Source: a virus
Lineage: Duplodnaviria; Caudoviricetes
DNA: 64,000 bases
IMG/VR virus record: IMGVR_UViG_3300037041_001930
Strand: one strand, 5' to 3'
The notes under the pieces were generated by a model, which worked only from the letters and a program-made list of their open reading frames with translations, ran no database searches and was not told the DNA's origin. A program made the position numbers and the translations under genes. This document shows, piece after piece, positions 9,291 to 24,106 of the stretch. Positions within the stretch are counted from its first letter, which is position 1, and each line of letters starts with the position of its first letter.

Positions 9291-9485
9291 TCAGAACCCA
9301 GACCCCTCAGCGGCGTCCAGCGCAGCCGCCCATGCCACGGCATCAAAGGTGACAAGCACGTTGGGCTGCGAGGCAAAGCGGACAACAACCTTGTCGGTGC
9401 CGTAGGGCTGCCACATCACGGCTTCACGCACATTGTATGTGGCACCGCCGACAACAGGAGTAAAGAAGTTATCTGTGACAGCCAT
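9291..9485 (-). CDS. Free-standing ~60-aa module, second copy
   Basis: 64-aa ORF: FTPVVGGATYNVREAVMW...VVVRFASQPNVLVTFDAVAWAAAL. TAATG overlap with the upstream gene. Confidence 0.75.
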   Translation of the reverse strand: MAVTDNFFTPVVGGATYNVREAVMWQPYGTDKVVVRFASQPNVLVTFDAVAWAAALDAAEGSGF

Positions 9486-12400
9486 TATGACCTCGACTTC
9501 GACGCCTGCATGGCGGTCTCAAAAGCATTGAGATCAAAACTCACGTTGACATCAGGGGAATCAGCGAAACGTACAAGTGAAGGCGTGCTACGGTTCCAAG
9601 TCGCCACCCAATCCAGGTTATAGTACACGCTACCCCCATAGGGGTTCCACCACTGGAGACTCGAGGGCAGCGCTGCCAGGAACGTGGCGCGGGGGATGCG
9701 AAGCGGGGGATTCACTGGCATCTGGGAATCCTCGGCCATCGCCGAGTACGCCATCCAGACATCCACGTACCCCAGGGCCGGGTAATCCACATACCTCTGA
9801 ACGAAGAGCACGTTGAGCGTGGTCTGCCCAATGATGAGGTCAGGCAACGCCGAAGCTATAACAGGGCTGCCGAGGAGAGTCGGACTACTTGAACGCGAGA
9901 GGTCCCACTGGGTCAGGAACCAGGCACGACTGAAATGGATCGGGGAGTATGGGTTGCCAAAGAAGATCGCCGATATCGACTGGGTGTCGTCCTTAAACGA
10001 GACCAGCCAACGGAGATCATAGATAGCGCCATTACTGGATTCATAGAAATGTGAGCTACCAAAGATAACGTTGTGGTTGTCCCCGCGATCCTTGATACCC
10101 CCGCGCGCATACACCGGGCTCCCCGCACTGGCGTTACACCATGCTATGCCCTGAGAAGAGTTTCCTTTGATGTAGCTGCTCGAGCTCGCACCAGACCGGC
10201 TCACGAGATTCCAGGCCCCGGCGGCCTGGAGATCGAGACCCTCGATCTTGATCTGGCCACCACGCAGGGTTGCCCCGACATAGTTCAACAGTGCCGCTGA
10301 AGTCAGCGTGAGTGCACCAAAGGCGTCGAGCACCCTGGCGTGGAGATCCACACTGGACCCCGCGAGAGCCGTGAAGGCACCAGTGGTGAGTACGACATCA
10401 TTAGAAAGATCGAGAATCGTGCCGGCACCAGAGACCAGGATGGAAGGGAATGCTGCGGGGAGCCCACCGTTGATCTGGAACTGCTGACGCACCCCACCAA
10501 CGAAGTCAACTCTGGGGACTCCATTAGAGACCACGTTGACCCCGGCCCCGATGACCAGCTTCCCGGTAAACTTGGCAAGAGATGCACCTGCACCTGAATG
10601 CGGCATCGCCGCGATACCCCATCGAGTCGTACCCCCGGATCTACCGAGGGTGACATCACCATACGTGATGTCGACGACATCTGCGTTTCCAACGGGGTAA
10701 TCGAAAAAGTAATCGCTGCCGCCACCGGCGACATAGGTGTACGTGAAACTCGAGATATTCGCGATGACTCCGTCACGTGCCTGAATCTGCATGACCTTGT
10801 TACCAGATGTGCGCTTCGCGAGGAGACCCGCGATATTCACGTTTCCTGGCCCCTCGAATCGACATTCGAGATTTGCGGACGCACCAGTGGCCTCCATGGT
10901 GAAGCCACCTTGGAGGTCAACACTACCGTTGAATATGAGCCTACACAGGTTGCCCCAGAGACCCTTGAGAGTCACGGGAGACGTGAAGACGTGACCAGTG
11001 GGCACCGAGTAGATCGTGTTGCCACTGGGACCCTCACGGAACTCAATGGGGCACGTGAAGACCACACTGGCAGGGGCCGGCAGAGGAGTCGACTTCAGGG
11101 TGTCCAGGATGAGCGTGGGGGTTCCAGCAATCGTACTCCCCGACCCCGTGATCAGAGTGGGGTAGCTGGCCACACCCCCAGCTAACCGCAGATTCCCAGA
11201 CACAAGGGTGAGAACAACCCCGGTTCCAAGTGTGATCCCGAGGAGATTCGCACCAGGTCCGACAACAGTGATATTCATCAACTTCTCGGTACCACCCATG
11301 TCTAACACTGCGGAGTAGTTAAATGCGAGACGAGACGGTATCTTCTGAGAAGGCGTGGAACTGAATACCACTGAGGCCCCTGCGCAATCCACGGCCAGGA
11401 CACCGCCCCAACTATTGTTGGCATCAGTGATCGTAAACTTGGAGAAATCGAACACGTAGTTGTCGCGTCGAAGCGTGACATTGTTGTTCGCGTAATTTAT
11501 AGTTAAACCAGTTTCGACCACAGTAAGCGCGAAAGTCCATGTGAGCGCAGAGTCAATGGCAAGCCCGAAGACTTTGGAGCCCAGGGTAAGATTGCCGGTG
11601 CCCGCAGGGGAGTCACCCCCGATGAAAAAGTAATGGTTGGTGTTCAGCCCACTCGCGGTGAGCCCACCTGCGAAGGTGTTCGCCCCGGTGACATGGAAAC
11701 CGTTGTCATTCTCCATGGTGTTCTTAGTGGTCTGGGACACACAGGACAGCCCGGCCGAATAGCCGATCTCACTGCCGATGGCCCCTGACAAGTTGACCCG
11801 GCACCCCGCACTGGTCGGCATGATTATGAATGTGCGTGTCCCGGCACCATTGAGCAGCGTAATCGCACCTGTGAAATTCACAGGGCTCTGCGCTCTCACA
11901 TGGAGCTTTACAGTGCCCCCGACTTCGATGGCACCACTAAACGTGTAATTGGCACTCAAGCCCGCAGGCATCGAGATCGTAGAAGTCGTGTTGCCGATCC
12001 CCAGTGCCATGTTGGTCGCAAAGGTTCGGGTAGCTCCTGCATCGACATACCACTCGAAGTAGGAGCCCTCGTAGAGGGAGATCTTTCCGGTTCCAAAGGA
12101 GTGAGTAGTCGTGGCGCCAGAGTAACTCAAGGAGAGTTGAACCCCAGCGGCGACTACTGTATTCCGGTGAGCCGGGAATGTCGTCGAACTCGAGTGCGCG
12201 TAAGCCCCACCATTGACCAGGATGTCATGTGCACCGGTCACAGAACCCGTGGTGAGCAGGAATCCCGAGCTCGTGTTGTCGATCGTGAAATCCGTCTTCA
12301 GCAGAAGCGGAGCCGAGATCGTAACAGTGTTGGATCCCGAGACCTGGTAGTACCGGGAGATCGAGAGGTTGCCACCATTCGATGCCGCCAGGGTCTTTTC

Positions 12401-12853
12401 ACCACTGGAGTCACTGGTGATGGTCAATATCGTGGTGTCCCCGTAGAAGGTGAATACCTTGGTCCCCGAGTTCGTGAGATGTAACTTGGTGATGACTTTA
12501 CCAGCGAAGTCGTAAGTAGCCGTGGATTCAATGACCCATCTACCCGTGGCATCGCTTACAGTCACCCCACTGGATAACGCGAGAGCGGTGACCCCAGCAG
12601 CCATAACTGCGAAATCAAAGGTGCCTAAGCTGAGGGTGCCCGTGTAACCCGTGAAGACCGCAGTGTTGACCGTGAGATTCGCACTCAGGGTACACGCATC
12701 ATTGTTCCCCGCACCACTGCCATCAAAACGGATGTCATCGGCGGCAAGAGAGCCCGCGGCGGCCGCAGTGGTGCCCCCGATGTCCGTGGTGTAGTTCTGA
12801 CGCTTATTCGCGTCGGAGTCGCCGACTTTGTTGTGCCAATAAAGGGTGGCCAT
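9485..12853 (-). CDS. Large beta-helix (autotransporter-passenger-like) fibre/adhesin protein with three C-terminal ~60-aa modules
   Basis: 1122 aa, Gly/Thr/Ser-rich beta-strand repeats such as VTGANTFAGGLTASG, NLSGAIG and GTGKISL. No C-terminal autotransporter barrel. Confidence 0.75.
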   Translation of the reverse strand: MATLYWHNKVGDSDANKRQNYTTDIGGTTAAAAGSLAADDIRFDGSGAGNNDACTLSANLTVNTAVFTGYTGTLSLGTFDFAVMAAGVTALALSSGVTVSDATGRWVIESTATYDFAGKVITKLHLTNSGTKVFTFYGDTTILTITSDSSGEKTLAASNGGNLSISRYYQVSGSNTVTISAPLLLKTDFTIDNTSSGFLLTTGSVTGAHDILVNGGAYAHSSSTTFPAHRNTVVAAGVQLSLSYSGATTTHSFGTGKISLYEGSYFEWYVDAGATRTFATNMALGIGNTTSTISMPAGLSANYTFSGAIEVGGTVKLHVRAQSPVNFTGAITLLNGAGTRTFIIMPTSAGCRVNLSGAIGSEIGYSAGLSCVSQTTKNTMENDNGFHVTGANTFAGGLTASGLNTNHYFFIGGDSPAGTGNLTLGSKVFGLAIDSALTWTFALTVVETGLTINYANNNVTLRRDNYVFDFSKFTITDANNSWGGVLAVDCAGASVVFSSTPSQKIPSRLAFNYSAVLDMGGTEKLMNITVVGPGANLLGITLGTGVVLTLVSGNLRLAGGVASYPTLITGSGSTIAGTPTLILDTLKSTPLPAPASVVFTCPIEFREGPSGNTIYSVPTGHVFTSPVTLKGLWGNLCRLIFNGSVDLQGGFTMEATGASANLECRFEGPGNVNIAGLLAKRTSGNKVMQIQARDGVIANISSFTYTYVAGGGSDYFFDYPVGNADVVDITYGDVTLGRSGGTTRWGIAAMPHSGAGASLAKFTGKLVIGAGVNVVSNGVPRVDFVGGVRQQFQINGGLPAAFPSILVSGAGTILDLSNDVVLTTGAFTALAGSSVDLHARVLDAFGALTLTSAALLNYVGATLRGGQIKIEGLDLQAAGAWNLVSRSGASSSSYIKGNSSQGIAWCNASAGSPVYARGGIKDRGDNHNVIFGSSHFYESSNGAIYDLRWLVSFKDDTQSISAIFFGNPYSPIHFSRAWFLTQWDLSRSSSPTLLGSPVIASALPDLIIGQTTLNVLFVQRYVDYPALGYVDVWMAYSAMAEDSQMPVNPPLRIPRATFLAALPSSLQWWNPYGGSVYYNLDWVATWNRSTPSLVRFADSPDVNVSFDLNAFETAMQASKSRS

Positions 12854-14066: not shown

Positions 14067-16544
14067 CTATTTGATCACGGTGAGATAATTGGTAAGCCTG
14101 TTGAACTCCAACTCAGCAAGAATCTGGTTGTGATGAAGCGGCTTCAGAAGGGCTGCTAGGGCGTCTGAAGCCGGGTGCGTACGACTCACGAGAACCCCGA
14201 GCCCAAACACCGCTGGGATCAGATATAGATCAAAATCCCCTGACCACATCTTGATGAAGTCCTCGATGGCAGTCAGGACTCCATTGCGCTCGCCCCCCGC
14301 GCGTAACGCGATGAAAAACTTTCCATTGCTCCGGAAACCAGATCCGGAGTGCACCATATCATTCAAGTCGACCCCAACGGAAGACGAGTTCGGTAGCAGG
14401 AACTCATCGGGGATACTGCTGGGGTCGTAATACTGGTCACGCCGCCCCCAGGGCCACCCTACATCGTAGATGACTGCTAAAAGCGGTTTCTTGTGGCGAT
14501 CACAGCTGACCTTAATAGCAGTCAACTCGTTATAGACGGTAAACCAGTTGTGATCGCCATCCAGCGACCACATATCGATGGCACCCGCACGGGGGATGGC
14601 GTCCAAACTGCGCCCACAGAACTTAGACAGCCTTTCTCCCTCGTTGAATTGCTGTAGCGAGTTGGGGTCGGTGTCCACCATTAACACTTTGCCGATGGCG
14701 CGCCCCGCACAGTAGTCCACCCATCGGCGCGTCATCCCACCGCCCTCAACACCGATCTCACAAACCGTGTTCACGCCGGCGGTCTCCGCGATATCCAGCA
14801 AGAGATTTGAGAACGTGCTCAAGGAGTGAAGCAGCGGGGGGCGTGAGAATCCATGCTTGGGGTTCACGTTAAAAAGAGCGTTGGCGAGATCGTACGCCTT
14901 AGGGGCTTCTGTGATCCTGGTGGCCTGGGCGACCTCAGGGGGCACATCAACCTGGGGGTGTCGCCACATGATATCGATCTCGCGGTACGTGATCGTGGAT
15001 GAATGCCGTGTAATCGTGGCGGCGACTCCACCGGGGGTAATCCCACTGAGATCTGGTTTATACAGGGGCCATAGGGCGACCGCGGCGTCCACAGCCTTAT
15101 GAGCGACATCAATGAGATCGGGATGATTCTCATGGGGAGCCCGAACAGGGGTGTCCCCTCTATACGTGATCAGAGAACCCACGACATCTTGATTGAAACT
15201 CTCGATACTCCACTTGGCACGCGTGAGTTCAGGTGGCATCATGACTGGAATGCAGTTCACGTTCGTATTGATACCTGCGAGGGCAACCATGCTGAACTGA
15301 TCCATGGGGCCTAACCCGAGGCGCGCCCATGCCCCCTTGAGAGATCTCCCACTCGCACGGATGTCGACCACTGTACGATCACGCAAGCACCCACGTAGAT
15401 AGGCGGCATAGGCGCCATCTGCGCTGGCCTCCGCCAAAGCGTTTCGGGATATGTTGACGATCTCAGCCTTCTTGCCCGTGATGCACTCGTACAGCTTGGT
15501 GAGTAAACAACAGTCCCGATAAATGAAAACTGGCTCGCGTTTCAAGGTCTCCTGCAGCCACTTCACGCCCATGCACAAGAACGGGATGTTCATGAGGACC
15601 TGCTCGGTCCACAACTGAGATCTCACACAATCCTTGGAGATGTGATATGGGTTGCTCCGCACGACATGACGCAACCAGGGGTACAAGGAGGGTACGTGTT
15701 TCGCGTACTCCCAGATATTACTGTCCCTGAAGAATAGCGCCTCGAGCCCGGCGGCGCGTGGGTTCGCGACATCACCATGGACGGCATCCCCGTAATGGCA
15801 CTGCGTGGTGCGCGCCAGGGGATCCCGCCACGTCGCCCCCGATGACTTGCCACCATAGGTAACCAGGATCTCGACACTCGCGGTGAGTCCGCACTTCACG
15901 AGAATCCGTCTGATGGCCTCAGCGGGGAGATACATGTCGGAGATGATGAGATCACCGTCTCGCACGAGACCCATGTTGGCCACGATTGGGTAAGCCTGGT
16001 TGACCTCCTCATCGATCTCCCGTGCCTTGGCAGCTGCGGTCTCGGATTCCGACCACTTGAACACCCCTGCAAGGCTGGCATAGATGGCATCAAGGGTGGA
16101 GCGCGTCGCCCCCTCGGCGGCGCGCCGTGCAGCCGTGAATCCAGGGATCCCGGTGGCCTTCTCGATGATCTCGAACACGGCAACGGGGTGTACACAGCGC
16201 CGGCCCACCAAGGTGTCAAAGCAATCCCAGCTCTGACGCCCCGTGAGATGCTCGGGCTCATGAATGGGTAACAGGTAGTGATATAAATTGGTGGTGTGGT
16301 AGTGACCTAGGAAACAATCCCACTTCATATCCTGGATATTGAAAGTTGAGGTCACCCCACCGGTCTGGTTCAGGAGAACCAAGGAGCCCTCGCGCAACTC
16401 CCATGACGACTCATTGGCGTGCGCGTACTCCCCGATCTTACCCCCTGGCAATAATCGCATGGGGCCGTAGGGCTGATACACCCCGTCCTTCCAGACCCTG
16501 CCAAACATGTAACGTCGCTGGAGAAACTCGGGGCTCGCTGCCAT
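14067..16544 (-). CDS. Multidomain glycan-modifying enzyme: HAD phosphatase + PRTase-type (ribofuranosyl) transferase + class I SAM methyltransferase
   Basis: HAD motifs SWDCFDTL, IISDMYLP, GGKSSG, HYGDAVHGD. PRTase-like FIYRDCCLL, ISRNAL, TVVDIRASGRSL. Methyltransferase_24-like VCEIGVEGGG, SLDGDHNWFTVYNEL, YDVGWPWGRRD, NGVLTAIEDF. Confidence 0.8.
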   Translation of the reverse strand: MAASPEFLQRRYMFGRVWKDGVYQPYGPMRLLPGGKIGEYAHANESSWELREGSLVLLNQTGGVTSTFNIQDMKWDCFLGHYHTTNLYHYLLPIHEPEHLTGRQSWDCFDTLVGRRCVHPVAVFEIIEKATGIPGFTAARRAAEGATRSTLDAIYASLAGVFKWSESETAAAKAREIDEEVNQAYPIVANMGLVRDGDLIISDMYLPAEAIRRILVKCGLTASVEILVTYGGKSSGATWRDPLARTTQCHYGDAVHGDVANPRAAGLEALFFRDSNIWEYAKHVPSLYPWLRHVVRSNPYHISKDCVRSQLWTEQVLMNIPFLCMGVKWLQETLKREPVFIYRDCCLLTKLYECITGKKAEIVNISRNALAEASADGAYAAYLRGCLRDRTVVDIRASGRSLKGAWARLGLGPMDQFSMVALAGINTNVNCIPVMMPPELTRAKWSIESFNQDVVGSLITYRGDTPVRAPHENHPDLIDVAHKAVDAAVALWPLYKPDLSGITPGGVAATITRHSSTITYREIDIMWRHPQVDVPPEVAQATRITEAPKAYDLANALFNVNPKHGFSRPPLLHSLSTFSNLLLDIAETAGVNTVCEIGVEGGGMTRRWVDYCAGRAIGKVLMVDTDPNSLQQFNEGERLSKFCGRSLDAIPRAGAIDMWSLDGDHNWFTVYNELTAIKVSCDRHKKPLLAVIYDVGWPWGRRDQYYDPSSIPDEFLLPNSSSVGVDLNDMVHSGSGFRSNGKFFIALRAGGERNGVLTAIEDFIKMWSGDFDLYLIPAVFGLGVLVSRTHPASDALAALLKPLHHNQILAELEFNRLTNYLTVIK

Positions 16545-16550
16545 ATCAGA

Positions 16551-18995
16551 TCACCTCGTCATGAAAGTGTAGGGGCCGACACCATCCCGGAAGTACCAGG
16601 CCGCGCCGACTAATGACCATGTTGGTTCCCCTGCGTTCGGGACCCCACGCGCCTTCGCCACGGGGTCAAAGTACCACCAGGGGAGTTCAACGAAATCAGT
16701 GGCCCTGATGTTGTCTGAGAGCACGGAGTCAAGCGACTGCATGGGAACCTGATTCATCCTAACCCTGGCCTTGCAGGCATCCCCCCAGGCCTCAACAGTG
16801 ACTGATGTGGCCGCAGCTCCGACTACCCTGGTCTGCACCTTGCCCTGGAGATCCTTGTAGCCAAAGGCCCCGGCACCAAGAGCACGGAGAGCGCTGGGGT
16901 CCCGGAGGACTTCGACATCAGCGTCGATGCAGATGCCACCGCTGGACGCGCTGAGTACCGCTGGCTTCGCGATCTCATTCAGGAGATCACGGGGGAGATC
17001 GGAGATCTTGGCCGCGAGGTCGTCTATGGCATCAGAGTCAAGACTATCGCCGGCGGCATAGAAACTAACAATGACAGCGTTGGTCTCAGGGGTGCTCTGC
17101 CACAAATTGACATCCCAGCCCAGGGCCGACAGCTTCTTGATGTTGTTGGCCACAGTGGCGGCAACCTCGCCCTCGATGGCGATGCCAATGCTCATGATGT
17201 GGATAACCTTGGGGATCGTGGGCTCATCAGCAGTCGGGGGATCCAGGGGATCCAAGCCGAATCCTTCGAGGTCGGTGAAGACGCCGGCCTGTTTGAGGAA
17301 CCTGAGGTACAGGCGTTCCTGTGGGGTATAGGCGCCCGCAGGGGGCTCCCCCCAGTACCGCATGTGCTTGGATTCAATGTGAGTGTCGATACCAGCGGTT
17401 ACAATAGTCTCCGCCCAGGTCTGTGCCCATCGAATCGCTTCGGCACCCGTGGAGAGCCCCCATGTCTCATGAATCAAGGGTGACTGTAGGAGGCGCTGGG
17501 CATACGCGGGATCCCAGACATCTGGCTTGGTCGCACTGATGTGCCGCAGTCTCGCGAGCACCTCGGCATACCGGGCACCCTGCACGGGATGGTCAAGCAC
17601 TCGAGGCCGGATTACAACTACACGCCAGGGCCTCAGTAGGGCCAGCCCGATCTCGAGGTCGTCGAGTGCACGGGGATGCAAGGGGTTCAACACCCAGTAA
17701 TCCGTGCGGGTACCCACGGGGTAACCGTCAAGACGCGGGAAGTTGACCCGTATAACGATGTCATCACTTTCGATGCCATCGACGCTTTCATCCCCGAGCA
17801 CCTTGGCAGTGGACCCATTGCCCACGATGACGGCCCTGCGGCTCCCATCGAGCTTATCGTTGTGCACCTTGATGGGCTTCGTGGACCCCGGGATATTCCA
17901 GGCACCATTGCGCGGTGGCATCCCCGCAGCGGCGAGAGCCTTGTCCTCGAGTTCGGCGAGGCGTTCAGTGGGCTTCCCGGGAGGTGTAGCCACGATCTCA
18001 GCAGTGTAGGCTGCCCATGCCGCCCTGACCCCGTCAACACTGAGTCCAGCCGAGTACCCCCAGGCGAGATCACGCAACGAATCCGTTACTATAGGGGGTG
18101 CGATTCGAGGCCTCGCTGAATCCACGGGATCCTTGAAGTGGCCGTCGTAGAGACCAGCCGAGGACTCCCTGGGGTTCACCTTGGAGTCATTGGTGGCCTG
18201 AGCCCTGGCATCAATGAAGGACTTGTAGGGGAAAGCAGTGAGCCCAGAGATCTGGGTGGTATTGAATACCTCGAATCCATGGTGGAGAAACTCGACCTGG
18301 AGCTGGGTGAACAATCCATTGAGGTACTCGAAGAGAGTATTGTTCTTAGCAGCGACTGCGGCGTCGACGACCTGATCATGGTTGTAGGCCCTCTTGGGAT
18401 CCATCTTGAAGTCGGCACCAACGAGGTAGACCCGCTTGAAACCCAGGATGTAGAGGATGCGGAGTGCAGCGACCATGGTGCTGCGACCACCTCTTACGGT
18501 ATCACTACCCTCCTGCCCCCAGTTGATGGTGTCCTCGTTCAGCCAGGTCTTGGCATCGAACTTGTCATTGCGCCGGATGAACCAGGTGTTCGGGCAATCC
18601 CGTGGGGTCTTCGCGAGGTGCTCACGAAGTGGCATGTCCTGGTAGGCCAGGGGATAGAACTTCGTGATCCCGGGATCCAGCCAGATCGAGTTCAGGAAGC
18701 GATGGGGTTCATCGAGGCCACACCAGAGCTGGGGACGCCAGCCCTGGGCGGCATTGTTGACCGCCATCGTGACGACCCCAGGAGTCGCTGAGAGCGCTTT
18801 GAGGTCGATGTCCCCTGCGCTGGGGCCCCCGCAGACCAGGAACGCCGTGGCGCCCTGGTAAGCGTGCCCCAGCCACGCGTTCTCCATCTGTGATGTAAAG
18901 AACACGGCGGGCTGGGAGCGCAGCACCCTCCCAGCCCGGGCCTCAGTTGAAGTCGTGATCTTGAAGACATCGTGACGCCCGGGGTGGGTGGTCAT
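16551..18995 (-). CDS. Triple glycosyltransferase-like fusion: Maf/DUF115-like + GT29 sialyltransferase-like + GT32 (DxD)
   Basis: Domain 1: FLVCGGPS, TMAVNN, RSTMVAALRILYILGFKRVYLVGADF. Domain 2 (from about aa 385): RAVIVGNG...IESDDIVIRVN...VGTRTD and LSTGAEAI...AGID. Domain 3: IPKVIH...GGICIDADVEVLR. Confidence 0.8.
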   Translation of the reverse strand: MTTHPGRHDVFKITTSTEARAGRVLRSQPAVFFTSQMENAWLGHAYQGATAFLVCGGPSAGDIDLKALSATPGVVTMAVNNAAQGWRPQLWCGLDEPHRFLNSIWLDPGITKFYPLAYQDMPLREHLAKTPRDCPNTWFIRRNDKFDAKTWLNEDTINWGQEGSDTVRGGRSTMVAALRILYILGFKRVYLVGADFKMDPKRAYNHDQVVDAAVAAKNNTLFEYLNGLFTQLQVEFLHHGFEVFNTTQISGLTAFPYKSFIDARAQATNDSKVNPRESSAGLYDGHFKDPVDSARPRIAPPIVTDSLRDLAWGYSAGLSVDGVRAAWAAYTAEIVATPPGKPTERLAELEDKALAAAGMPPRNGAWNIPGSTKPIKVHNDKLDGSRRAVIVGNGSTAKVLGDESVDGIESDDIVIRVNFPRLDGYPVGTRTDYWVLNPLHPRALDDLEIGLALLRPWRVVVIRPRVLDHPVQGARYAEVLARLRHISATKPDVWDPAYAQRLLQSPLIHETWGLSTGAEAIRWAQTWAETIVTAGIDTHIESKHMRYWGEPPAGAYTPQERLYLRFLKQAGVFTDLEGFGLDPLDPPTADEPTIPKVIHIMSIGIAIEGEVAATVANNIKKLSALGWDVNLWQSTPETNAVIVSFYAAGDSLDSDAIDDLAAKISDLPRDLLNEIAKPAVLSASSGGICIDADVEVLRDPSALRALGAGAFGYKDLQGKVQTRVVGAAATSVTVEAWGDACKARVRMNQVPMQSLDSVLSDNIRATDFVELPWWYFDPVAKARGVPNAGEPTWSLVGAAWYFRDGVGPYTFMTR

Positions 18996-18996
18996 A

Positions 18997-19305
18997 TCAA
19001 CTCCTTCGAGTCTTTTTCTTCTTGGCGTGCTCGCGGCGTGCGCGTGCCTTGATAACGCTGCTACGCTCTCTCAGGATCTTGAGCTGGCGGGCCTTCTCGG
19101 CCTCACGTGCCTCCAGGATTCGCTTGCGCCTGAGCGCACGGGCTTTCTCCAAGTGGTCATCACGGCTACCGGGGTGATCCCCGGTGGCCTTCTCATAGGC
19201 CGCACGTTCCTCGGGGGTCAGGATTCCCGGGGCTGCCTTGGGTTTCTCGGTCTCCTCGAGAACTGATGCCGTCGCGGCATCGATGACAGCGCTGAGGTCC
19301 TTCAT
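18997..19305 (-). CDS. Hypothetical basic helical protein
   Basis: 102-aa ORF, Arg/Lys-rich C-terminus, tightly packed with neighbours. Confidence 0.65.
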   Translation of the reverse strand: MKDLSAVIDAATASVLEETEKPKAAPGILTPEERAAYEKATGDHPGSRDDHLEKARALRRKRILEAREAEKARQLKILRERSSVIKARARREHAKKKKTRRS

Positions 19306-19796
19306 GACTTCACCTTCTTAGCCTTCGCCTTCTTCGACTTCGCAGTCTCGACACTGGAGACTTTCTTTTTCTTACTGGCTGCGGGCTGCTGAGATTTCAC
19401 TGTCTTCAACTTTTCCAGGACCTCCTTGGTAGCCATTGTCAGAGTTTTGACGATATCCTGGGTACCCTTGAATGTCGCCACCGCGGTACTCTTCAGGGCA
19501 TCGATGTGGGCCTGGGCAACCATGTTGTCCCCTTTGCGCGTGACCACCCATTGTATCCCCGCGATGGTGAGGCGCTGGGCTTCAGTCTCCACAGAACTGG
19601 CATTACCAGGGATCAGGCTCATGAGGCGTGACTGGGCCTTCAAGTAGAGCTCGCCCACGCCGCGTGGGGTCCTGATGGGGTTGATGGCTATGACTTTAGC
19701 GGTCTGGACGACGACGTTTAACATCGCGTCGATCTCCTTCATACGCTCGTAATGAGCCTGGCTGGCCGGGCTGGGGCATGCGGATTCCGATGACAT
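19302..19796 (-). CDS. Hypothetical protein with Lys-rich tail
   Basis: Start moved to MSSES (ATG 19796) behind SD AGAGGAG. Confidence 0.65.
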   Translation of the reverse strand: MSSESACPSPASQAHYERMKEIDAMLNVVVQTAKVIAINPIRTPRGVGELYLKAQSRLMSLIPGNASSVETEAQRLTIAGIQWVVTRKGDNMVAQAHIDALKSTAVATFKGTQDIVKTLTMATKEVLEKLKTVKSQQPAASKKKKVSSVETAKSKKAKAKKVKS

Positions 19797-19831
19797 ATAG
19801 TCTCCTCTGGGCGTGAGCCCATGTGGGTGGG

Positions 19832-19846
19832 TTGACTGACAGTAAA
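19832..19846. promoter_or_regulatory. TTGAC-N5-GTAAA motif copy (reads on + strand)
   Basis: GTTGACTGACAGTAAAC, identical core to the copy upstream of nrdJ, in the gap between two genes. Confidence 0.6.
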
Positions 19847-19864
19847 CCATGACTCCGTGCGGTG

Positions 19865-20146
19865 TCAAGTCGGTGGGGTGTCCGGGATATCCTTGATGGC
19901 CTGACGGGTGCGCGCGATTCCACCGGTAGCCGCGATAAACAAGTTCTGGATGTAATCCGTGCTCGCGCGTTCCTTGAACTCCTGTGCAGTTATTCCAGGG
20001 GTCCCCCCGAGCTGGGCAAGCGAGTTCCGCAAAGTCAGGGAGACCTGGTGGAGCTCAGCTGCACAGTTGATCACATTCTGAATCTCCGGTGGCAACTTGG
20101 TTGCCTGTGCCGGCTTCGAGGAGTTCAGCATTATCGTGTCCATCAT
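19865..20146 (-). CDS. Hypothetical protein
   Basis: 93-aa helical ORF directly downstream of the GT2-KpsS gene. Confidence 0.6.
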   Translation of the reverse strand: MMDTIMLNSSKPAQATKLPPEIQNVINCAAELHQVSLTLRNSLAQLGGTPGITAQEFKERASTDYIQNLFIAATGGIARTRQAIKDIPDTPPT

Positions 20147-20154
20147 ATAGTCCC

Positions 20155-21900
20155 TTAATCAATTGGTTTGAGCCCGAAGCGTTGGAGAACATCCCCAATG
20201 CTCGATGTACGCTGAACTCTAAGTGCCCAGTACCCGGCGAGAAGACGCTCGCGGTGGCGCCAGGGGTGGACCTGCAGGGGGCACTTCCCCAAGGCGACCA
20301 CGGGCACCCCAATCATGGCGGCCTCGATCAACGAGGTCGAATTGATTCCGACGACGACCTCGCTGACACGGGCGGCGTCATAGAAGTCCTTGACGACCTC
20401 GCGGCCCTCAATGCTGGCCCGTGCTGACCTCCAGGGCCGCTGGGACCCCGACTTGGGATGCGGGCGCACCACGATGTCATGACTCGGGTACATCGCGGCG
20501 ACGTGTTCAACAAACTCGCCCATGTTGCGGTAGGCACAGTGATACAAGATCTGGGAGTCATTCTCGATCTGGAGGGGGACGAGGACTCGCGATTTCTTGG
20601 GTTCCAGGGGATACTTGGCGCGGAGTTCAGAGACCCCCTCGCGGTATGCCTTGAGGTCGGCGTCGGTAACCCAGCCCAGGGGGCGCATGAGCATCGAATC
20701 CCCAGCGAAGCCATCGAGGTCGACGAGGAATGTTGAAGCCTGCGGGGCCACCCCCCACTCGAAGAAGGCATAGGGGATCTTCATGGCCTCACAGAGCGCC
20801 TTGGCGTTGCGACCATTGTGCTGGGCGCCATTCCAGATCACGACGAAGGCGGCCCTCTTGAGATCCCCGGCGACCTTGAAGAACTCGGTGTCGATGCCAA
20901 TGAAGGCGTAGGGGCGCCCCAGGGACTCCGCCCAGCGCTTCACGAAGCCCTGGCACTCGCTGCCATTCCAGCCAATGTAAACAATGGCGCCGTCATCGGC
21001 ACGGCGACCCGGGGCCTCCTCGGGCTCACATTCGCCCTGGGGGACCTCGTGGAGGCTCTCCTTGCCCGGCCAGGGATCAATGGGGGCCAAGACGGCATCG
21101 GAGGCCCTGACCTCGTAACCCATGGTGGCCCTGGTGTACACCGAGGTGAGCTCGCGTTCCAAGCGATCCGCCCACTTCGAGGGGGTCACAATCATGGTGG
21201 CACGGGTGACCCGGGCATGAAGCACGGCGACCCCGGCGTGGTGGAGGTAGAACCTCTGCGGCGACATCCAGGGACTCAGGGGTTCCTCGACGAACCCTGT
21301 GGGATTCCTGCCGAGCTCACGGTTGAGATGGTTGACCTGAAAGGGGAACTCGGCGATGACGCGCTGGGCAAAAATGACGTCATGGTTACGCATGACACCC
21401 TGGGGATACGTGATGCCCGCGTCTACAATGGCGGCGCGGCGGAAGAACGCGGCGTTATACCTCAGCGGGAACTTGCCCTCCAGGGACTGCCGGGTCACCG
21501 AATAATCGCCCCAGACCACGGAGTTGCGGACCACGGCTTCACTCGCCTTGAGCTCATGGGTCCACAACACGATGTCAGGAGACTTCTCGGCTTCCTGTTC
21601 GAGGACTGCGATACGGACTTCTTCGGAGAAATCCCTGTCGCCGTGGACCAAGATGAAGTCAGCTCTTGAGCGTGCGATGAGGAAGTTGAGGGCGGCACCG
21701 GGGCCAATGCGGTACGCACTCGTGAAGACCTCAATCCTGGAGTCAATCCCGCGTTCCTCCTCGATGAGCTCAGCGGTCTCCGCTGTGGCGGCATCACTGA
21801 ACACTAGGACGCGGTTGACCCCGCGAATCTTGAGGATGTTCTGGAGGGTGGCCTCGATGTGGGAGTTGTCATGGGTGACTAAGACGACGTCAGTGGTCAT
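20155..21900 (-). CDS. GT2 glycosyltransferase fused to a KpsS/KpsC-like (Capsule_synth) domain
   Basis: N-terminal GT-A pattern VVLVTHD...GPGAALN...ADFILVHGDRD. C-terminal FFEWG, LVPLQIENDSQI, VVRPHP, VVVGINSTSLIEAAMIGVPVVALG. Confidence 0.82.
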   Translation of the reverse strand: MTTDVVLVTHDNSHIEATLQNILKIRGVNRVLVFSDAATAETAELIEEERGIDSRIEVFTSAYRIGPGAALNFLIARSRADFILVHGDRDFSEEVRIAVLEQEAEKSPDIVLWTHELKASEAVVRNSVVWGDYSVTRQSLEGKFPLRYNAAFFRRAAIVDAGITYPQGVMRNHDVIFAQRVIAEFPFQVNHLNRELGRNPTGFVEEPLSPWMSPQRFYLHHAGVAVLHARVTRATMIVTPSKWADRLERELTSVYTRATMGYEVRASDAVLAPIDPWPGKESLHEVPQGECEPEEAPGRRADDGAIVYIGWNGSECQGFVKRWAESLGRPYAFIGIDTEFFKVAGDLKRAAFVVIWNGAQHNGRNAKALCEAMKIPYAFFEWGVAPQASTFLVDLDGFAGDSMLMRPLGWVTDADLKAYREGVSELRAKYPLEPKKSRVLVPLQIENDSQILYHCAYRNMGEFVEHVAAMYPSHDIVVRPHPKSGSQRPWRSARASIEGREVVKDFYDAARVSEVVVGINSTSLIEAAMIGVPVVALGKCPLQVHPWRHRERLLAGYWALRVQRTSSIGDVLQRFGLKPID

Positions 21901-22742
21901 ATCAGGCCTCCGACACCGTAGTCGATGGCAGCGAAGTTAATCTCCCCTCGTGGCGCCGTGGTATCGATGCCGAGGCCATGCCAGATCTCAGTGGTGACCT
22001 CGAAGGTGCCCTTGTCACCCATGGTGATCCGTGGCCATACCGCATCAGCGATGACGACGTGGTGACCACAGAAGCCCCCGCGGAGCACACATGTCTTATG
22101 GGGCAACGCGGAGGCCTTAGGAGCCCCGACGACAACCCTGGCGCCGACGTCACGCGCCAGCAGGGGATTCGCGGACAGCCTGGCCTTAATGGCAGCGCTG
22201 AGCAGCCATGCCTCGGGGTACACGACGAGATCACATGCGGAGACCATCACCGAGGTGACCTGCTCACCTGGCTTACTGGCATCGAGAAGGGTGGCACGCG
22301 AGATCACGGAGTCGAGAACCCCGAGCACCCTGGTGTCCACTGCGAATGCAAGAGGAGTGAGGATATCACGGGTGTACCAGTCCCAGAAGGATTCACCTGT
22401 CTTCAGGAGATCCGCGATTGATGACTTCGCGGTCACCGGGGTGCGCAGGATCGAGAACTTTACATCTCCCTTTACACCGGGTTCGACGACATTGGCGACG
22501 AGGACGTCCTTGGGGTTCGCGGCGAAGTGTGCCCTGGCAGCGTCGACATTGGCAGCAGGGGCATCCAGGGCGACACCGAAGACCTCGGCGAGGCTGCGGC
22601 GTGTCGGGGGCCACCACTTCATCGTGGTCGCCACGTTCTCCAACCACTCCAGGGTCCAGACCCCGAGGATGGCGTTGAATGCCACGGGGTCGGACTTCAC
22701 GGAGTCCAGGAGACCAACAGGGGATCCAGTGAATGGAGTCAT
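21897..22742 (-). CDS. Hypothetical protein, possible degenerate HK97-fold capsid paralogue
   Basis: 281 aa. The spine-helix-like SIADLLKTG..FWDWY...LAFAVDTRVLGVLD and the C-terminal G....EIWHGLGI recall large-phage capsid proteins (pattern only). Confidence 0.45.
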   Translation of the reverse strand: MTPFTGSPVGLLDSVKSDPVAFNAILGVWTLEWLENVATTMKWWPPTRRSLAEVFGVALDAPAANVDAARAHFAANPKDVLVANVVEPGVKGDVKFSILRTPVTAKSSIADLLKTGESFWDWYTRDILTPLAFAVDTRVLGVLDSVISRATLLDASKPGEQVTSVMVSACDLVVYPEAWLLSAAIKARLSANPLLARDVGARVVVGAPKASALPHKTCVLRGGFCGHHVVIADAVWPRITMGDKGTFEVTTEIWHGLGIDTTAPRGEINFAAIDYGVGGLI

Positions 22743-24106
22743 GAGTTCCTCGTCAAACGGAGACCACGGAAGGCGTCAGCGAAATCGATGACGCATGTAT
22801 AACTCAGGGTGACTTCAAGAATGCCGGATTTCGCTGCCTTTGTCTTCTCAGCCTTGGCTACCTTGAGTTCCTTTTCCTCAGCGCAGGCACGAACAAGGGC
22901 CTCCTCGAGCTCAAGAGACTTGTCACTCCTGGCCTGGGCGACCTCAGTGGCGAACTCGGGAAGCACGGGTTCCTGAGGTGTCTTCAAGAAGTCCTCAAGG
23001 GCCTGCTTGGCTGTTGCCGCCTTGATCACGGCGGCGCTATGGGCTTTCGTGGCCTCGTCGGCCGCAATCTTCCCGATGTCCTTGATGCGGATGCCATAGG
23101 CCCAGTGGTCTTCCTTGAACACACCGCCAGGACGCTTGAACACCGCGATGCCATGTGGCAGCGGTGTCGGGTCTTCCACGGCGACCTGGGCTGCCTTGAG
23201 ATCTCCGATGACTTCACCATTGGCGAGACCAATGGCAGCGTACATCTTGGAGTCCATGAGCACGGCATCGTTATCCAGGGTCAGCCTGACGAGAACATCG
23301 TGCTCGGGCCTCGTGGTGTCCACAAAGATGGTGTGGCCATCCAACGCGATATCCAGGTAATCCGCGATGCCCCTGCAGAGATGGTTGGCGAACCATTGCC
23401 GGAATGTCACACCTTGATTCGCGATATCACCGAGATCGACGACAGCCTTGACCACGAATATCTTGGCAGTCCCGTTCTCAGCGATGCCCTCGTGGCCATC
23501 GATGAAGTCGTGACGGAGCCCGGAGAGCTCAGGGATCACGGTGCCCTGGATCTCGGGTTTCCAGAGGCGTTGAAGACAAGAGTTCTCGAGCATCCACCAC
23601 GCCGCGAACTCCCTGCAGGTCTGGAACCCCATGAGGGCGTCCTCGAGGACCGCGGCGTAGAACGCAGCATTGAGCTCCCGGGCACGCTCGGGCCCCGGAC
23701 TCGCGAGTTCCACTGGTGGTACGTACCTCGGGGGTGCCGAGAGCGAATCGATATGAGCACCAATGGTCTTCCAATCCGGGGCTGCCACGATGCCGTCGAG
23801 CTCGGGATCCTTGATGTAATTCACTGAGTTGTTTAATACGAGGTTGCCATTGGGGAGCCGAGTCATCAGGATCTTGCCGGCATTGGCACGCGCCGCCGCA
23901 ATGGCCTGCCTGAGCTCCATGGTCATCGGGAGACCATCGGGCAACGAAGCCGGGTCAACGATCTGGGCCTTGTCGACGACATGAAGCCCTTTGGCCGCGA
24001 TGTGATTCTGTCGCCATTGCCCCAGGATCTCATCCCGTTTGTGGGCAAACGAGGATCCCAAGTTGATCTCAAAACCGCCTGAGACCATGTCGCCTTCGCG
24101 CAGCAT
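22739..24106 (-). CDS. Hypothetical protein, possible degenerate HK97-fold capsid paralogue with coiled-coil insertion
   Basis: 455 aa. VDLGDIANQGVTFRQWFANHLCRGIADYLD aligns by eye with the neighbouring 281-aa protein. Ala/Glu/Lys-rich helical insert near the C-terminus. Confidence 0.45.
   Translation of the reverse strand: MLREGDMVSGGFEINLGSSFAHKRDEILGQWRQNHIAAKGLHVVDKAQIVDPASLPDGLPMTMELRQAIAAARANAGKILMTRLPNGNLVLNNSVNYIKDPELDGIVAAPDWKTIGAHIDSLSAPPRYVPPVELASPGPERARELNAAFYAAVLEDALMGFQTCREFAAWWMLENSCLQRLWKPEIQGTVIPELSGLRHDFIDGHEGIAENGTAKIFVVKAVVDLGDIANQGVTFRQWFANHLCRGIADYLDIALDGHTIFVDTTRPEHDVLVRLTLDNDAVLMDSKMYAAIGLANGEVIGDLKAAQVAVEDPTPLPHGIAVFKRPGGVFKEDHWAYGIRIKDIGKIAADEATKAHSAAVIKAATAKQALEDFLKTPQEPVLPEFATEVAQARSDKSLELEEALVRACAEEKELKVAKAEKTKAAKSGILEVTLSYTCVIDFADAFRGLRLTRNS

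What the first reader, a model, noticed from the sequence alone, without database searches (positions are those of the whole stretch)
16551..18995. Three different transferase-like domains in one chain, including a GT29 domain with recognisable sialylmotifs
Seen: domain 2 has equivalents of sialylmotif L (AVIVGNG...D.V.RVN...VGTRTD), S (LSTG.EAI...AGID), III (HMRYW) and a VS-like segment in which the usual His appears absent (YTPQERLYL). It is flanked by a Maf/DUF115-like domain (CGGPS...ST..AA......GFK.VYLVGADF) and a GT32 domain (IPKVIH...IDAD). Established: GT29 is mainly eukaryotic with scattered bacterial members; Maf proteins transfer nonulosonic acids to flagellin proteins. Inference: this may be a protein-priming plus elongation assembly line that glycosylates a virion protein directly.
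Basis: partly seen in the sequence, partly recalled or inferred. Interest (0 to 1): 0.75.

Follow-up and report, generated by a model that had tools for sequence, protein, structure and literature searches.

The report
Three-module sugar-adding enzyme of phage
A large uncultured freshwater phage encodes one 814-residue protein that joins three different sugar-transferring modules, two of them shaped like sialic-acid-type transferases; it sits in a fast-changing gene block for building a sugar chain, but what that chain is attached to is still unknown.

Summary
Window 16551-18995 (minus strand) is one 814-aa ORF with three transferase-like domains.

- **D1 (about residues 30-290):** a confident model whose best solved match is the central catalytic domain of the flagellin glycosyltransferase Maf (Z 14.1).
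- **D2 (about 378-585):** resembles GT29 sialyltransferases by Pfam (just under the cut-off), by a profile search of the PDB, by Foldseek and by the ESM Atlas.
- **D3 (about 592-814):** gives no Pfam hit itself, but is clearly homologous (hhalign 99.3%) to relatives' domains that pass PF04488 (GT32). It keeps an invariant DxD.

D1 and D2 are under strong purifying selection (dN/dS 0.06-0.19). D3 evolves faster, and the domains have recombined separately.

The gene belongs to a conserved phage glycan island. Upstream lies a GT2 plus KpsC-like gene. Downstream is a slot whose enzyme differs in almost every relative.

Neither this phage nor a complete 216-kb relative encodes a CMP-sugar synthetase. 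Host CMP-Kdo is therefore the most likely acidic-sugar donor; this is an inference.

The acceptor is not shown. A virion protein is plausible, possibly the adjacent Ser/Thr-rich beta-solenoid fibre. A host glycolipid is the main rival.

This scan has already noted Maf-like phage transferases on other DNA. I class this as a new variant of a known kind.

The parts
16551..18995 (-). Whole gene: 814-aa three-domain glycosyltransferase (P0001)
   Evidence: ORF and translation. Full-length relatives are 63-89% identical in related phage contigs.
18126..18908 (-). D1, residues about 30-290: Maf/MptE-like sialyltransferase-fold module. Residues invariant across 93 family members: G57, N80, N81, D95, K112, G185, G193, D195, M198, Y204, N218.
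   Evidence: dN/dS 0.06-0.19.
17865..18125 (-). Residues 291-377: linker plus a helical N-terminal extension of D2. D351 is invariant.
   Evidence: Helices at model residues 11-27 and 35-47. GT29 chains align from model residue 1 onward. Alignment A2.
17241..17864 (-). D2, residues about 378-585: GT29-like sialyltransferase-fold module. Invariant residues: R416, G428, T431, D432, W434, V435, A520, W548. E560 is nearly invariant. There is no VS histidine.
   Evidence: dN/dS 0.12-0.18.
17682..17840 (-). Sialylmotif-L-like segment, residues 386-438
   Evidence: Aligned to PF00777 positions 49-107 and to the L motif of ST3Gal-I, ST6Gal-I, ST8Sia-III and ST6GalNAc-II.
16554..17222 (-). D3, residues about 592-814: GT32-type GT-A module
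   Evidence: hhalign 99.3% to PF04488-positive relatives. The relatives' profile hits GT32/GT44-type GT-A enzymes in the PDB. dN/dS 0.30-0.51.
16917..16925 (-). DxD motif of D3 (D691-A-D693)
   Evidence: Invariant in alignment A1, including PF04488-positive relatives.
14067..16544 (-). Variable 'decorating enzyme' slot. In this phage it holds an 825-aa protein with a C-terminal methyltransferase domain.
Evidence: Methyltransf_24 hit. The slot holds different enzymes in L173, L006, L174, L001 and L002-L004.
20155..21900 (-). Conserved island partner: GT2 domain fused to a Capsule_synth (KpsC/KpsS-type) domain
   Evidence: PF00535 and PF05159 both score over their cut-offs. The gene occupies the same position in L001, L002, L004, L006, L173 and L174.
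18997..19868 (-). Two small basic proteins (102 aa and 188 aa) conserved directly upstream of the three-domain gene
   Evidence: Translations. Proteins of similar size lie at the same position in relatives. No family hit.
21897..24106 (-). Conserved island genes of unknown function (281 aa and 455 aa)
   Evidence: Syntenic in L006, L173 and L174, with similar-sized genes in L001, L002 and L004. No family or Atlas hit.
9485..12853 (-). Candidate acceptor: 1122-aa fibre-like protein, rich in Ser/Thr and Gly
   Evidence: S+T is 21%, against 8-18% in the neighbouring proteins. The first 80 residues are 45% identical to a 1406-aa protein in L003, and the rest is divergent. The language-model search finds PATR/beta-solenoid clusters at score 0.91, which is only a lead.

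Best explanation
The gene encodes a soluble, three-module glycosyltransferase of a roughly 216-kb uncultured freshwater phage. It is the constant core of a phage glycan-building island.

Shown:
- D1 has the fold of the Maf central catalytic domain.
- D2 has the GT29/GT42 sialyltransferase fold, with a GT29-type L motif.
- D3 is a GT32-type GT-A domain with an intact DxD.
- D1 and D2 are unrelated in sequence to each other, and both are under strong purifying selection.
- The domains have recombined independently.
- The gene is flanked by a conserved GT2 plus KpsC-like gene and by a slot whose enzyme differs from lineage to lineage.

Inferred:
- D1 and D2 each transfer a 2-keto-3-deoxy acidic sugar from a CMP-activated donor.
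- The phage lineage encodes no CMP-sugar synthetase or NeuB-type synthase. The donor is therefore host-made, most likely CMP-Kdo of a Gram-negative host. The spread of the D1 family points to Verrucomicrobiota or Planctomycetota.
- D3 adds a hexose from a UDP- or GDP-sugar, using Mn2+ bound at the DxD.
- In D2, another acidic residue would have to replace the missing GT29 histidine as catalytic base. Glu560 and Asp432 are conserved candidates.
- The finished short acidic glycan is decorated differently in each lineage. It is most likely attached in the cytoplasm to a phage particle protein. The adjacent Ser/Thr-rich beta-solenoid fibre is the best candidate.
For: Domains:
- D1.
- D2.
- D3.
- D1 and D2 are not duplicates of each other: hhalign probability 5.7%.

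The domains are functional, not decaying. dN/dS is 0.06-0.19 for D1, 0.12-0.18 for D2 and 0.30-0.51 for D3. dS against L173 is mosaic, at 0.17, 0.63 and 0.08 for D1, D2 and D3.

Island and variable slot.

D1 and GT32 recur together. A GT32 domain is fused or adjacent in 12 of 80 viral loci and 17 of 80 genome loci, and the two are adjacent as separate genes in a Limisphaerales genome.

Donor:
- No PF02348 or PF03102 match in this record, nor in the complete 216-kb relative with terminal repeats.
- The KpsC/KpsS-type domain next door scores over its cut-off.
- Maf enzymes accept CMP-Kdo (PMC11339370).
- Plant GT29 members are proposed Kdo transferases, and some plant GT29-like proteins lack motifs III and VS (PMC11288761, PMC5811610).
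- WaaZ Kdo transferases are among D1's structural relatives, TM 0.61/0.69.
- One D1 family member has a CTP_transf_3 gene three genes away.

Target:
- No membrane segment is predicted.
- The fibre-like neighbour.
- The D1 family lies beside tape-measure genes in 34 of 80 viral loci and capsid genes in 17 of 80, and directly after a terminase gene in L012.

Host: genome hits to the D1 family are almost all MAGs of Verrucomicrobiota, Planctomycetota or Lentisphaerota.
Against: - No domain of this protein passes its own Pfam cut-off: PF00777 20.3 against 23 bits, PF01973 17.7 against 34.6 bits, and no PF04488 hit at all.
- D2 lacks the GT29 catalytic His. Its model is only moderate (pLDDT 68) and is below 50 just upstream of the VS-like segment. 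By Z-score it ties with non-transferase MptE-like proteins: SteA 10.9, HPPK 10.7, Cst-I 10.6.
- More distant relatives (P0010, P0011, P0013) have lost the GNG and R-x-N Asn residues of the L motif.
- No donor is shown. None of the 80 viral D1 loci has a CMP-sugar synthetase nearby, by a single-seed search. The donor class is therefore inferred from the fold alone.
- No acceptor is shown. D1 lacks Maf's flanking helical domains. WaaZ-like and KpsC-like relatives act on glycans or lipids, not proteins.
- The genes I scanned immediately flanking the island gave no structural-family hit.
- The tape-measure and capsid association probably comes from only a few related phage clades. It counts loci, not independent events.
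Confidence: 0.5

Rival explanations
1. The enzyme chemistry is the same, but the acceptor is a host envelope glycolipid rather than a virion protein. The island would remodel the LPS core or build a capsule-like, Kdo-primed glycan on a lipid during infection. That could block superinfection or stop progeny from sticking to cell debris.
For: - The conserved neighbour carries a KpsC/KpsS-type Capsule_synth domain over its cut-off.
- D1's structural relatives include WaaZ, the LPS-core Kdo III transferase, and MptE-like domains fused to teichoic-acid-type polymerases.
- Fusion or slot partners in relatives are LPS-type families: GT25, GT9 heptosyltransferase, LicD and pyruvyl transferase.
- D1 lacks Maf's protein-binding flanking domains.
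Against: - No flippase, polymerase, ABC exporter or membrane segment was seen in the island.
- In other phages the D1 family sits in head and tail modules.
- Hypervariable decoration fits a virion surface equally well.
Confidence: 0.3
2. D2 is not a working transferase. It would be a sialyltransferase-fold module that has lost catalysis and now binds the nucleotide sugar, the growing glycan or the acceptor, so the protein would add only two sugars.
For: - The catalytic His of motif VS is absent, and the first position of motif III is not conserved (R, T or A).
- Distant relatives have lost the GNG and R-x-N Asn residues.
- By structure it ties with non-transferase MptE-like proteins.
Against: - Purifying selection on D2 is as strong as on D1, with dN/dS 0.12-0.18.
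- Polar residues stay invariant or nearly so across relatives about 27% identical: D351, R416, T431, D432 and E560.
- This clade keeps a near-canonical L motif.
- Other sialyltransferase families use Asp as the catalytic base (my own knowledge of GT52 and GT80).
- Some plant GT29-like proteins also lack motifs III and VS (PMC5811610).
Confidence: 0.2
3. The island glycosylates phage DNA bases, a hypermodification that evades restriction, rather than a protein or lipid.
For: Phage glycosyltransferases that put multi-sugar glycans on DNA are known and common in metaviromes (bioRxiv 10.1101/2023.12.21.572611; PMC13326640). A ribonucleotide reductase gene lies about 8 kb away.
Against: - No thymidylate-synthase-like hydroxymethylase was found in this record or in the complete relative.
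- The Tet/JBP search found nothing, but its control also rang nowhere, so that result is uninformative.
- The fold families reported for DNA glycosylation are GT-A (TarP/JGT-like) and T4 beta-GT-like GT-B, not sialyltransferase-fold or KpsC-like.
Confidence: 0.04
4. D1 or D2, or both, are MptE-like pyrophosphokinases or SteA-like nucleotide-binding domains and do not transfer sugars.
For: The M. jannaschii HPPK and SteA are among the top structural matches: Z 11.2 for D1, and 10.7-10.9 for D2. PF01973 covers both kinds of protein.
Against: - For D1, Maf stands 3 Z units above HPPK.
- D2's sequence-level hits are only GT29.
- Every identifiable fusion and neighbour is a glycan enzyme.
Confidence: 0.04

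Closest known systems
Maf (motility accessory factor) flagellin glycosyltransferases, for example Magnetospirillum magneticum Maf (PDB 5mu5) and Clostridium botulinum Maf
   Same: D1 superposes on the central catalytic domain: Z 14.1, 201 residues, 17% identity. It shares the GxGPS-type N-terminal loop and the G-x-D-F block that also align to Cst-II. Maf enzymes are soluble cytoplasmic enzymes that use CMP-activated acidic sugars, and they accept CMP-Kdo (PMC11339370).
   Different: - Maf's N- and C-terminal helical domains are absent.
- PF01973 scores far below its cut-off.
- There is no flagellin gene and no nonulosonate pathway in the phage.
- Here the module is fused to two further transferases.
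- D1 belongs to its own large family. The search gave 1128 representative hits to the whole protein, and nearly all of the best 150 align to D1. The family is found mainly in phages and in Verrucomicrobiota and Planctomycetota.
CAZy GT29 sialyltransferases (ST3Gal-I, ST6Gal-I, ST8Sia-III, ST6GalNAc-II; bacterial and plant GT29-like proteins)
   Same: - The L motif aligns.
- The fold match spans the whole domain, including the N-terminal helices, with 190-197 aligned residues.
- The best Atlas match is a GT29 cluster.
- S-like and III-like strings lie in the right order.
- Bacterial GT29 proteins also lack the disulfide cysteines, and some plant members lack motifs III and VS and are proposed Kdo/Dha transferases (PMC5811610, PMC11288761).
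   Different: - The Pfam score is under the cut-off.
- Gln559 stands where a GT29-positive phage homologue has the VS His.
- Motif III begins with Arg, not His or Tyr.
- It is cytoplasmic, has no membrane anchor, and is embedded between two other transferase domains in a tailed phage.
Chlorovirus PBCV-1 multidomain glycosyltransferases A064R and A111/114R
   Same: A single virus-encoded polypeptide carries three transferase functions that build an unusual glycan independently of host glycosyltransferases (PMC7826918, PMC9614988).
   Different: Those belong to a eukaryotic giant virus, use other fold families, and have a proven target, the N-glycans of the major capsid protein. Here the virus is a tailed phage, two of the three modules have the sialyltransferase fold, and the target is unknown.
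Virion glycosylation of mycobacteriophages (Freeman et al. 2023, as cited in PMC12619734)
   Same: Phage-encoded glycosyltransferases decorate the phage's own capsid and tail-tube proteins. This is the only experimentally shown precedent for the proposed target class.
   Different: The enzyme families, host and glycan differ, and those systems have no multidomain fusion.
Group 2 capsule priming by KpsS/KpsC, and the LPS-core Kdo transferase WaaZ
   Same: The neighbouring gene has the KpsC/KpsS-type domain. WaaZ-family models are structural relatives of D1. Both use CMP-Kdo.
   Different: Those enzymes act on lipid or LPS acceptors at the membrane and work with exporters. No exporter or membrane protein was found in this island.

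Membership tests
GT29 (Pfam PF00777) | Score over the Pfam gathering cut-off (23 bits) | tested here: not met
   20.3 bits, E 4e-4, residues 380-438 only. Homologues P0014 (32.2 bits) and the L009 229-aa ORF (35.3 bits) pass, again on the L motif only.
GT29 (Pfam PF00777) | Sialylmotif L | tested here: met
   Residues 386-438 align to the L motif of ST3Gal-I, ST6Gal-I, ST8Sia-III and ST6GalNAc-II. Eight of the nine PDB profile hits are GT29, best E 0.002.
GT29 (Pfam PF00777) | Sialylmotif S | tested here: inconclusive
   An S-x-G ... G-I-D string at 514-537 lies in the right order, and S515, A518-A520 and G535 are conserved. No profile alignment reached this region.
GT29 (Pfam PF00777) | Motif III, (H/Y)-Y-(Y/F/W)-(E/D/Q/G) | tested here: inconclusive
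   The sequence is R545-Y-W-G. Y/F-W-G is conserved across relatives, but the first position varies (R, T or A).
GT29 (Pfam PF00777) | Motif VS with the catalytic His (H-x4-E) | tested here: not met
   The sequence is Y556-T-P-Q-E560. The L009 homologue has T-P-H at this place. E560 is nearly invariant.
GT29 (Pfam PF00777) | Sialyltransferase (GT-A variant) fold | tested here: met
   The Foldseek top 46 are all sialyltransferases, with ST8Sia-III best at E 2.7e-5. GT29 chains give Z 8-9 over 190-197 residues. The Atlas GT29 cluster gives TM 0.52/0.59. The model is only moderate, pLDDT 68.
GT29 (Pfam PF00777) | Inverting transfer from a CMP-activated ulosonic acid | not testable with these tools
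   Needs an enzyme assay.
Maf flagellin glycosyltransferases (Pfam PF01973) | Score over the Pfam gathering cut-off (34.6 bits) | tested here: not met
   17.7 bits, residues 158-197. 55 of 93 family members match at E <= 1e-3, best E 2.8e-7.
Maf flagellin glycosyltransferases (Pfam PF01973) | Fold of the central catalytic domain | tested here: met
   5mu5 gives Z 14.1, rmsd 3.9 and 201 aligned residues. Model residues 34-273 align to chain residues 255-520. Model pLDDT is 91.
Maf flagellin glycosyltransferases (Pfam PF01973) | Flanking N- and C-terminal helical domains | tested here: not met
   Only about 30 residues precede the catalytic core, and D2 follows it. The Maf match covers chain residues 255-520 of 632.
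Maf flagellin glycosyltransferases (Pfam PF01973) | Genomic link to flagellin and a nonulosonate pathway | tested here: not met
   No NeuB or CTP_transf_3 in this record or in the complete relative. The neighbours are glycan enzymes and phage genes.
Maf flagellin glycosyltransferases (Pfam PF01973) | O-glycosylation of protein Ser/Thr | not testable with these tools
   Needs co-expression and mass spectrometry.
GT32 (Pfam PF04488) | Direct Pfam match | tested here: not met
   No hit on P0001, even at E <= 10.
GT32 (Pfam PF04488) | Homology to domains that pass PF04488 | tested here: met
   hhalign of A4 against A5 gives 99.3%, E 3.5e-20, 203 columns. Members of A5 pass the cut-off at 31.6-43.3 bits. 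The A5 profile hits GT32/GT44-type GT-A enzymes in the PDB.
GT32 (Pfam PF04488) | DxD metal-binding motif after the G-G turn | tested here: met
   G686, G687, D691 and D693 are invariant in A1.
Multidomain viral glycan-building transferases (PBCV-1 A064R, A111/114R type) | Several transferase domains in one virus-encoded chain | tested here: met
   Three domains. Relatives carry the same three in another order (P0014: GT32, then MptE-like, then GT29).
Multidomain viral glycan-building transferases (PBCV-1 A064R, A111/114R type) | Acts on the virus's own capsid protein | not testable with these tools
   No cultured representative exists. Only gene position is available as evidence.

The most novel reading that the evidence does not exclude
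The phage hijacks the host's CMP-Kdo pool. With two unrelated sialyltransferase-fold modules in one chain, it builds an LPS-core-like or capsule-like acidic glycan directly on its own beta-solenoid fibre in the cytoplasm. One module would be a GT29-type enzyme that uses an acidic residue instead of the canonical histidine. The glycan would serve as a fast-diversifying virion coat. The swappable decorating-enzyme slot and domain-wise recombination would then be the phage counterpart of O-antigen or flagellin-glycan variation.
Probability: 0.2. Interest if true: 0.8.

Novelty: new variant of a known kind. Interest (0 to 1): 0.55.

Why it matters
Glycosylation of tailed-phage particles has been shown experimentally only for mycobacteriophages. 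GT29-type enzymes are regarded as mainly eukaryotic, with a few proteobacterial members.

This gene shows that a lineage of large freshwater phages keeps a GT29-like module under purifying selection. The module is fused to a Maf-like and a GT32 module, inside an island whose decorating enzyme changes between close relatives.

The D1 module belongs to a large unnamed family spread through phages and PVC-group bacteria. The family is often paired with GT32, and I found no paper describing it.

If the product is a virion glycan made from host CMP-Kdo, it would bear on how phages mask or vary their surfaces. It would also offer compact soluble enzymes for attaching acidic sugars.

The finding is an architecture with inferred chemistry. 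Neither donor nor acceptor is shown.

Tried and rejected
- **Nucleotide search against GenBank phages:** no match.
- **phmmer of the whole protein against PDB sequences:** nothing. Only profile searches reached known structures.
- **NCBIfam:** no hit for P0001. One family member gave a weak WaaZ hit.
- **PHROGs and Pfam on the genes I scanned around the island:** almost nothing, and no structural-family hit. I therefore could not confirm that the island lies inside a virion module.
- **D2 as a diverged duplicate of D1:** rejected, hhalign probability 5.7%.
- **Stand-alone short relatives of D2:** none in the word-indexed search. Only 3 IMG/VR loci matched.
- **Search for a CMP-sugar synthetase near 80 viral D1 loci:** none. 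This used a single seed, so its sensitivity is limited.
- **DNA-hypermodification reading:** no ThyS-like gene. The Tet/JBP search was uninformative because its control rang nowhere.
- **Large proteins near the gene in L001 and L002:** not homologous to the 1122-aa fibre-like protein. Adjacency of a fibre-like gene therefore holds in only some lineages.
- **K-x-A-(A/S/G) protease tag reported by earlier notes:** occurs once in this protein, K568-Q-A-G at the D2/D3 border. About one occurrence is expected by chance, so I give it no weight.
- **Atlas feature search on the 455-aa island protein:** no usable hit.
- **Not done:** No complex prediction was run.

Full report
**The gene**

Window 16551-18995 on the minus strand is one uninterrupted ORF of 814 residues. 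It lies in a long run of minus-strand genes in a 171.5-kb single-contig virus record, estimated 79% complete. Full-length relatives at 63-89% identity occur on phage contigs of up to 216 kb. One of these is a complete genome with terminal repeats.

**Domain 1 (residues about 30-290)**

On the protein itself Pfam gives only a sub-threshold MptE-like/Maf hit, 17.7 against 34.6 bits. PHROGs gives 'alpha-2,3-sialyltransferase' at E 9e-7.

An exhaustive search found 1128 representative proteins. Nearly all of the best 150 match this domain alone, at about 40% identity and in many architectures.

A 93-sequence profile (A3) hits the GT42 sialyltransferase Cst-II (E 0.006). The G-G-P-S loop and the G-x-D-F...Y block align.

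With that alignment AlphaFold gives a confident model, pLDDT 91. Its best solved match is the central catalytic domain of Magnetospirillum Maf. Foldseek gives E 4e-6, and Z is 14.1 over 201 residues, three units above the next match.

Only Maf residues 255-520 are matched, so Maf's flanking helical domains have no counterpart here.

In the ESM Atlas the nearest models are unnamed clusters from Planctomycetota and tailed phages (TM about 0.8). Next come MptE-like domains fused to GT2 or to teichoic-acid-type enzymes, and then the Kdo transferase family WaaZ, TM 0.61/0.69.

Eleven residues are invariant across the 93 sequences, including N80, N81, D95, K112, D195, Y204 and N218.

**Domain 2 (residues about 378-585, with a helical extension from about 310)**

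Pfam GT29 scores 20.3 bits on the L motif, against a cut-off of 23. Two homologues pass the cut-off:
- P0014, which carries the same three domains in the order GT32, MptE-like, GT29 (32.2 bits).
- A stand-alone 229-aa ORF on another viral contig (35.3 bits).

A 13-sequence profile searched against PDB sequences returns nine hits. Eight of them are GT29 enzymes aligned on the L motif.

The model is moderate, pLDDT 68. Its 46 best Foldseek matches are all sialyltransferases, with GT29 ahead of GT42. By Z-score, GT29, GT42, Maf, HPPK and SteA tie at 8-11, but only the GT29 chains cover the N-terminal helices as well. The best Atlas match is a chordate GT29 cluster, TM 0.52/0.59.

Where the GT29-positive viral homologue has T-P-H, this protein has T-P-Q-E. 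Motif III begins with Arg.

Residues that stay invariant or nearly so down to about 27% identity are D351, R416, T431, D432, W434, W548 and E560.

D2 is not a copy of D1: profile-profile probability is 5.7%.

**Domain 3 (residues about 592-814)**

The protein itself has no Pfam hit. Its clade aligns to the C-terminal domains of relatives that pass PF04488, with 99.3% probability. The G-G...D-x-D block is invariant. The relatives' profile hits GT32/GT44-type GT-A enzymes in the PDB, including the GT32 mannosyltransferase Och1. I did not fold D3.

**Selection and mosaicism**

Codon comparison with three relatives gives dN/dS of 0.06-0.19 for D1, 0.12-0.18 for D2 and 0.30-0.51 for D3. Against the closest relative, dS is 0.17, 0.63 and 0.08 for the three domains. 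Per-domain protein identities show the same patchwork.

Two conclusions follow:
- D2 is maintained, not decaying.
- The domains have been exchanged separately between phages.

**Context**

A block is conserved across relatives. In gene order it reads:
1. Proteins of 455 aa and 281 aa.
2. A GT2 fused to a KpsC/KpsS-type Capsule_synth domain, with both domains over their cut-offs.
3. Two small basic proteins.
4. The three-domain gene.
5. A variable slot.

The variable slot holds a different enzyme in almost every relative:
- Here: an 825-aa protein with a methyltransferase domain.
- In the 89%-identical relative: a 695-aa GT32 protein.
- In others: GT25 plus SPASM; DUF5672, GT25 and a radical SAM enzyme; UDP-galactopyranose mutase plus a methyltransferase; or a pyruvyl transferase with LicD and a cytidylyltransferase.

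Further downstream lies a 1122-aa protein with 21% Ser+Thr. Its first 80 residues are conserved in a 1406-aa protein of another relative, and the rest is divergent. This is the usual pattern of a fibre or receptor-binding protein. Language-model neighbours are PATR/beta-solenoid proteins, which I treat as a lead only.

The genes I scanned immediately flanking the island gave no structural-family hit.

**The wider D1 family**

The family has 244 loci in IMG/VR and 229 in species-representative genomes. Of the 80 best genome loci kept, almost all lie in MAGs of Verrucomicrobiota, Planctomycetota or Lentisphaerota, and many carry phage genes.

Among the 80 viral loci:
- The commonest neighbours are a tape-measure protein (34 loci) and a major capsid protein (17 loci).
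- One member follows the terminase gene directly.
- A GT32 domain is fused or adjacent in 12 of the 80 viral loci, and in 17 of the 80 genome loci.

In a Limisphaerales chromosome the two are adjacent as separate genes. These counts are of loci, not of independent lineages.

**Donor**

Neither this record nor the complete relative has a CMP-sugar synthetase (PF02348) or a NeuB-type synthase. The sialyltransferase fold is tied to CMP-activated 2-keto-3-deoxy sugars.

Four published or observed points bear on Kdo:
- Maf enzymes accept CMP-Kdo (PMC11339370).
- Plant GT29 members are proposed Kdo transferases (PMC11288761).
- Some plant GT29-like proteins lack motifs III and VS (PMC5811610).
- The neighbouring domain is of the CMP-Kdo-using KpsC/KpsS type.

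Host CMP-Kdo is therefore my best guess for D1 and D2. It is an inference.

**Acceptor**

The acceptor is not shown.

For a virion protein:
- The enzyme is probably soluble.
- The neighbour is fibre-like.
- The family sits in structural modules elsewhere.
- The precedents are mycobacteriophage virion glycosylation (cited in PMC12619734) and the three-function chlorovirus enzymes (PMC7826918).

For a host glycolipid:
- The relatives are KpsC-like and WaaZ-like.
- The partner families are of LPS type (GT25, GT9).
- Maf's protein-binding domains are absent.

DNA glycosylation has no support: no ThyS-like gene was found.

**Verdict**

I file D2 as GT29-like rather than a GT29 member, because the catalytic His and the Pfam cut-off are not met. 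I file D1 as Maf-core-like rather than a Maf.

I found no paper on phage Maf/DUF115 transferases or on jumbo-phage sialyltransferases. This scan has itself noted Maf-like phage transferases, and one GT29-type jumbo-phage enzyme, on other DNA. What is new here is the three-module fusion and its recombining, variable island. I class that as a new variant of a known kind.

Noticed in passing
window 14067-16544, compared with L173:11448-13535, L006:12438-13934, L174:11584-15758, L001:13257-15931 and L003:4485-7146: The slot just downstream of the three-domain gene holds a different glycan-modifying enzyme in nearly every relative, even at 89% identity of the flanking gene. It behaves like a swappable cassette.
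   Followed up: partly
window 16551-18995 against L173:9001-11445: Synonymous divergence differs about eight-fold between domains of the same gene pair: D1 0.17, D2 0.63, D3 0.08. This indicates recombination at the domain borders.
   Followed up: partly
window 9485-12853: A 1122-aa protein rich in Ser/Thr and Gly. Its 80-residue N-terminus is shared (45% identity) with a 1406-aa protein of a distant relative, and the rest is unrelated. It looks like a beta-solenoid fibre or receptor-binding protein, with PATR-like neighbours from Verrucomicrobiota.
   Followed up: partly
L093-L172 (genome-contig hits of D1): The D1 family in cellular genomes is almost confined to MAGs of Verrucomicrobiota, Planctomycetota and Lentisphaerota, and many loci carry phage genes. 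This hints that phages with this module, perhaps including this one, infect PVC-group bacteria.
   Followed up: partly
L009:6013-6702: A stand-alone 229-aa viral ORF passes the Pfam GT29 cut-off (35.3 bits) and has an H-x4-E string like motif VS. It sits beside ribonucleotide reductase and exonuclease genes on a 19.6-kb viral contig.
   Followed up: partly
P0010-P0103 (alignment A6); L057: Two D1-family members are fused to an Erv1/Alr sulfhydryl oxidase domain, and one D1 locus is on a giant-virus MAG contig. The module may therefore also occur in nucleocytoplasmic large DNA viruses.
   Followed up: no
window 5179-8661: The ribonucleotide reductase ORF is unusually long (1160 aa), and its PHROG match covers mainly residues 730-996. 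The homologous gene in a relative (L006) carries a LAGLIDADG domain, which suggests an intein.
   Followed up: no
window 18997-19868: Two small, very basic proteins (102 aa and 188 aa, with Lys/Arg-rich C-termini) are conserved directly upstream of the three-domain gene in all relatives. Neither has a family match.
   Followed up: no
window 17283-17294 (residues 568-571): K-Q-A-G sits at the D2/D3 border and matches the K-x-A-(A/S/G) tag that other notes on this genome read as a prohead-protease site. One such match per 814 residues is about what chance gives.
   Followed up: partly
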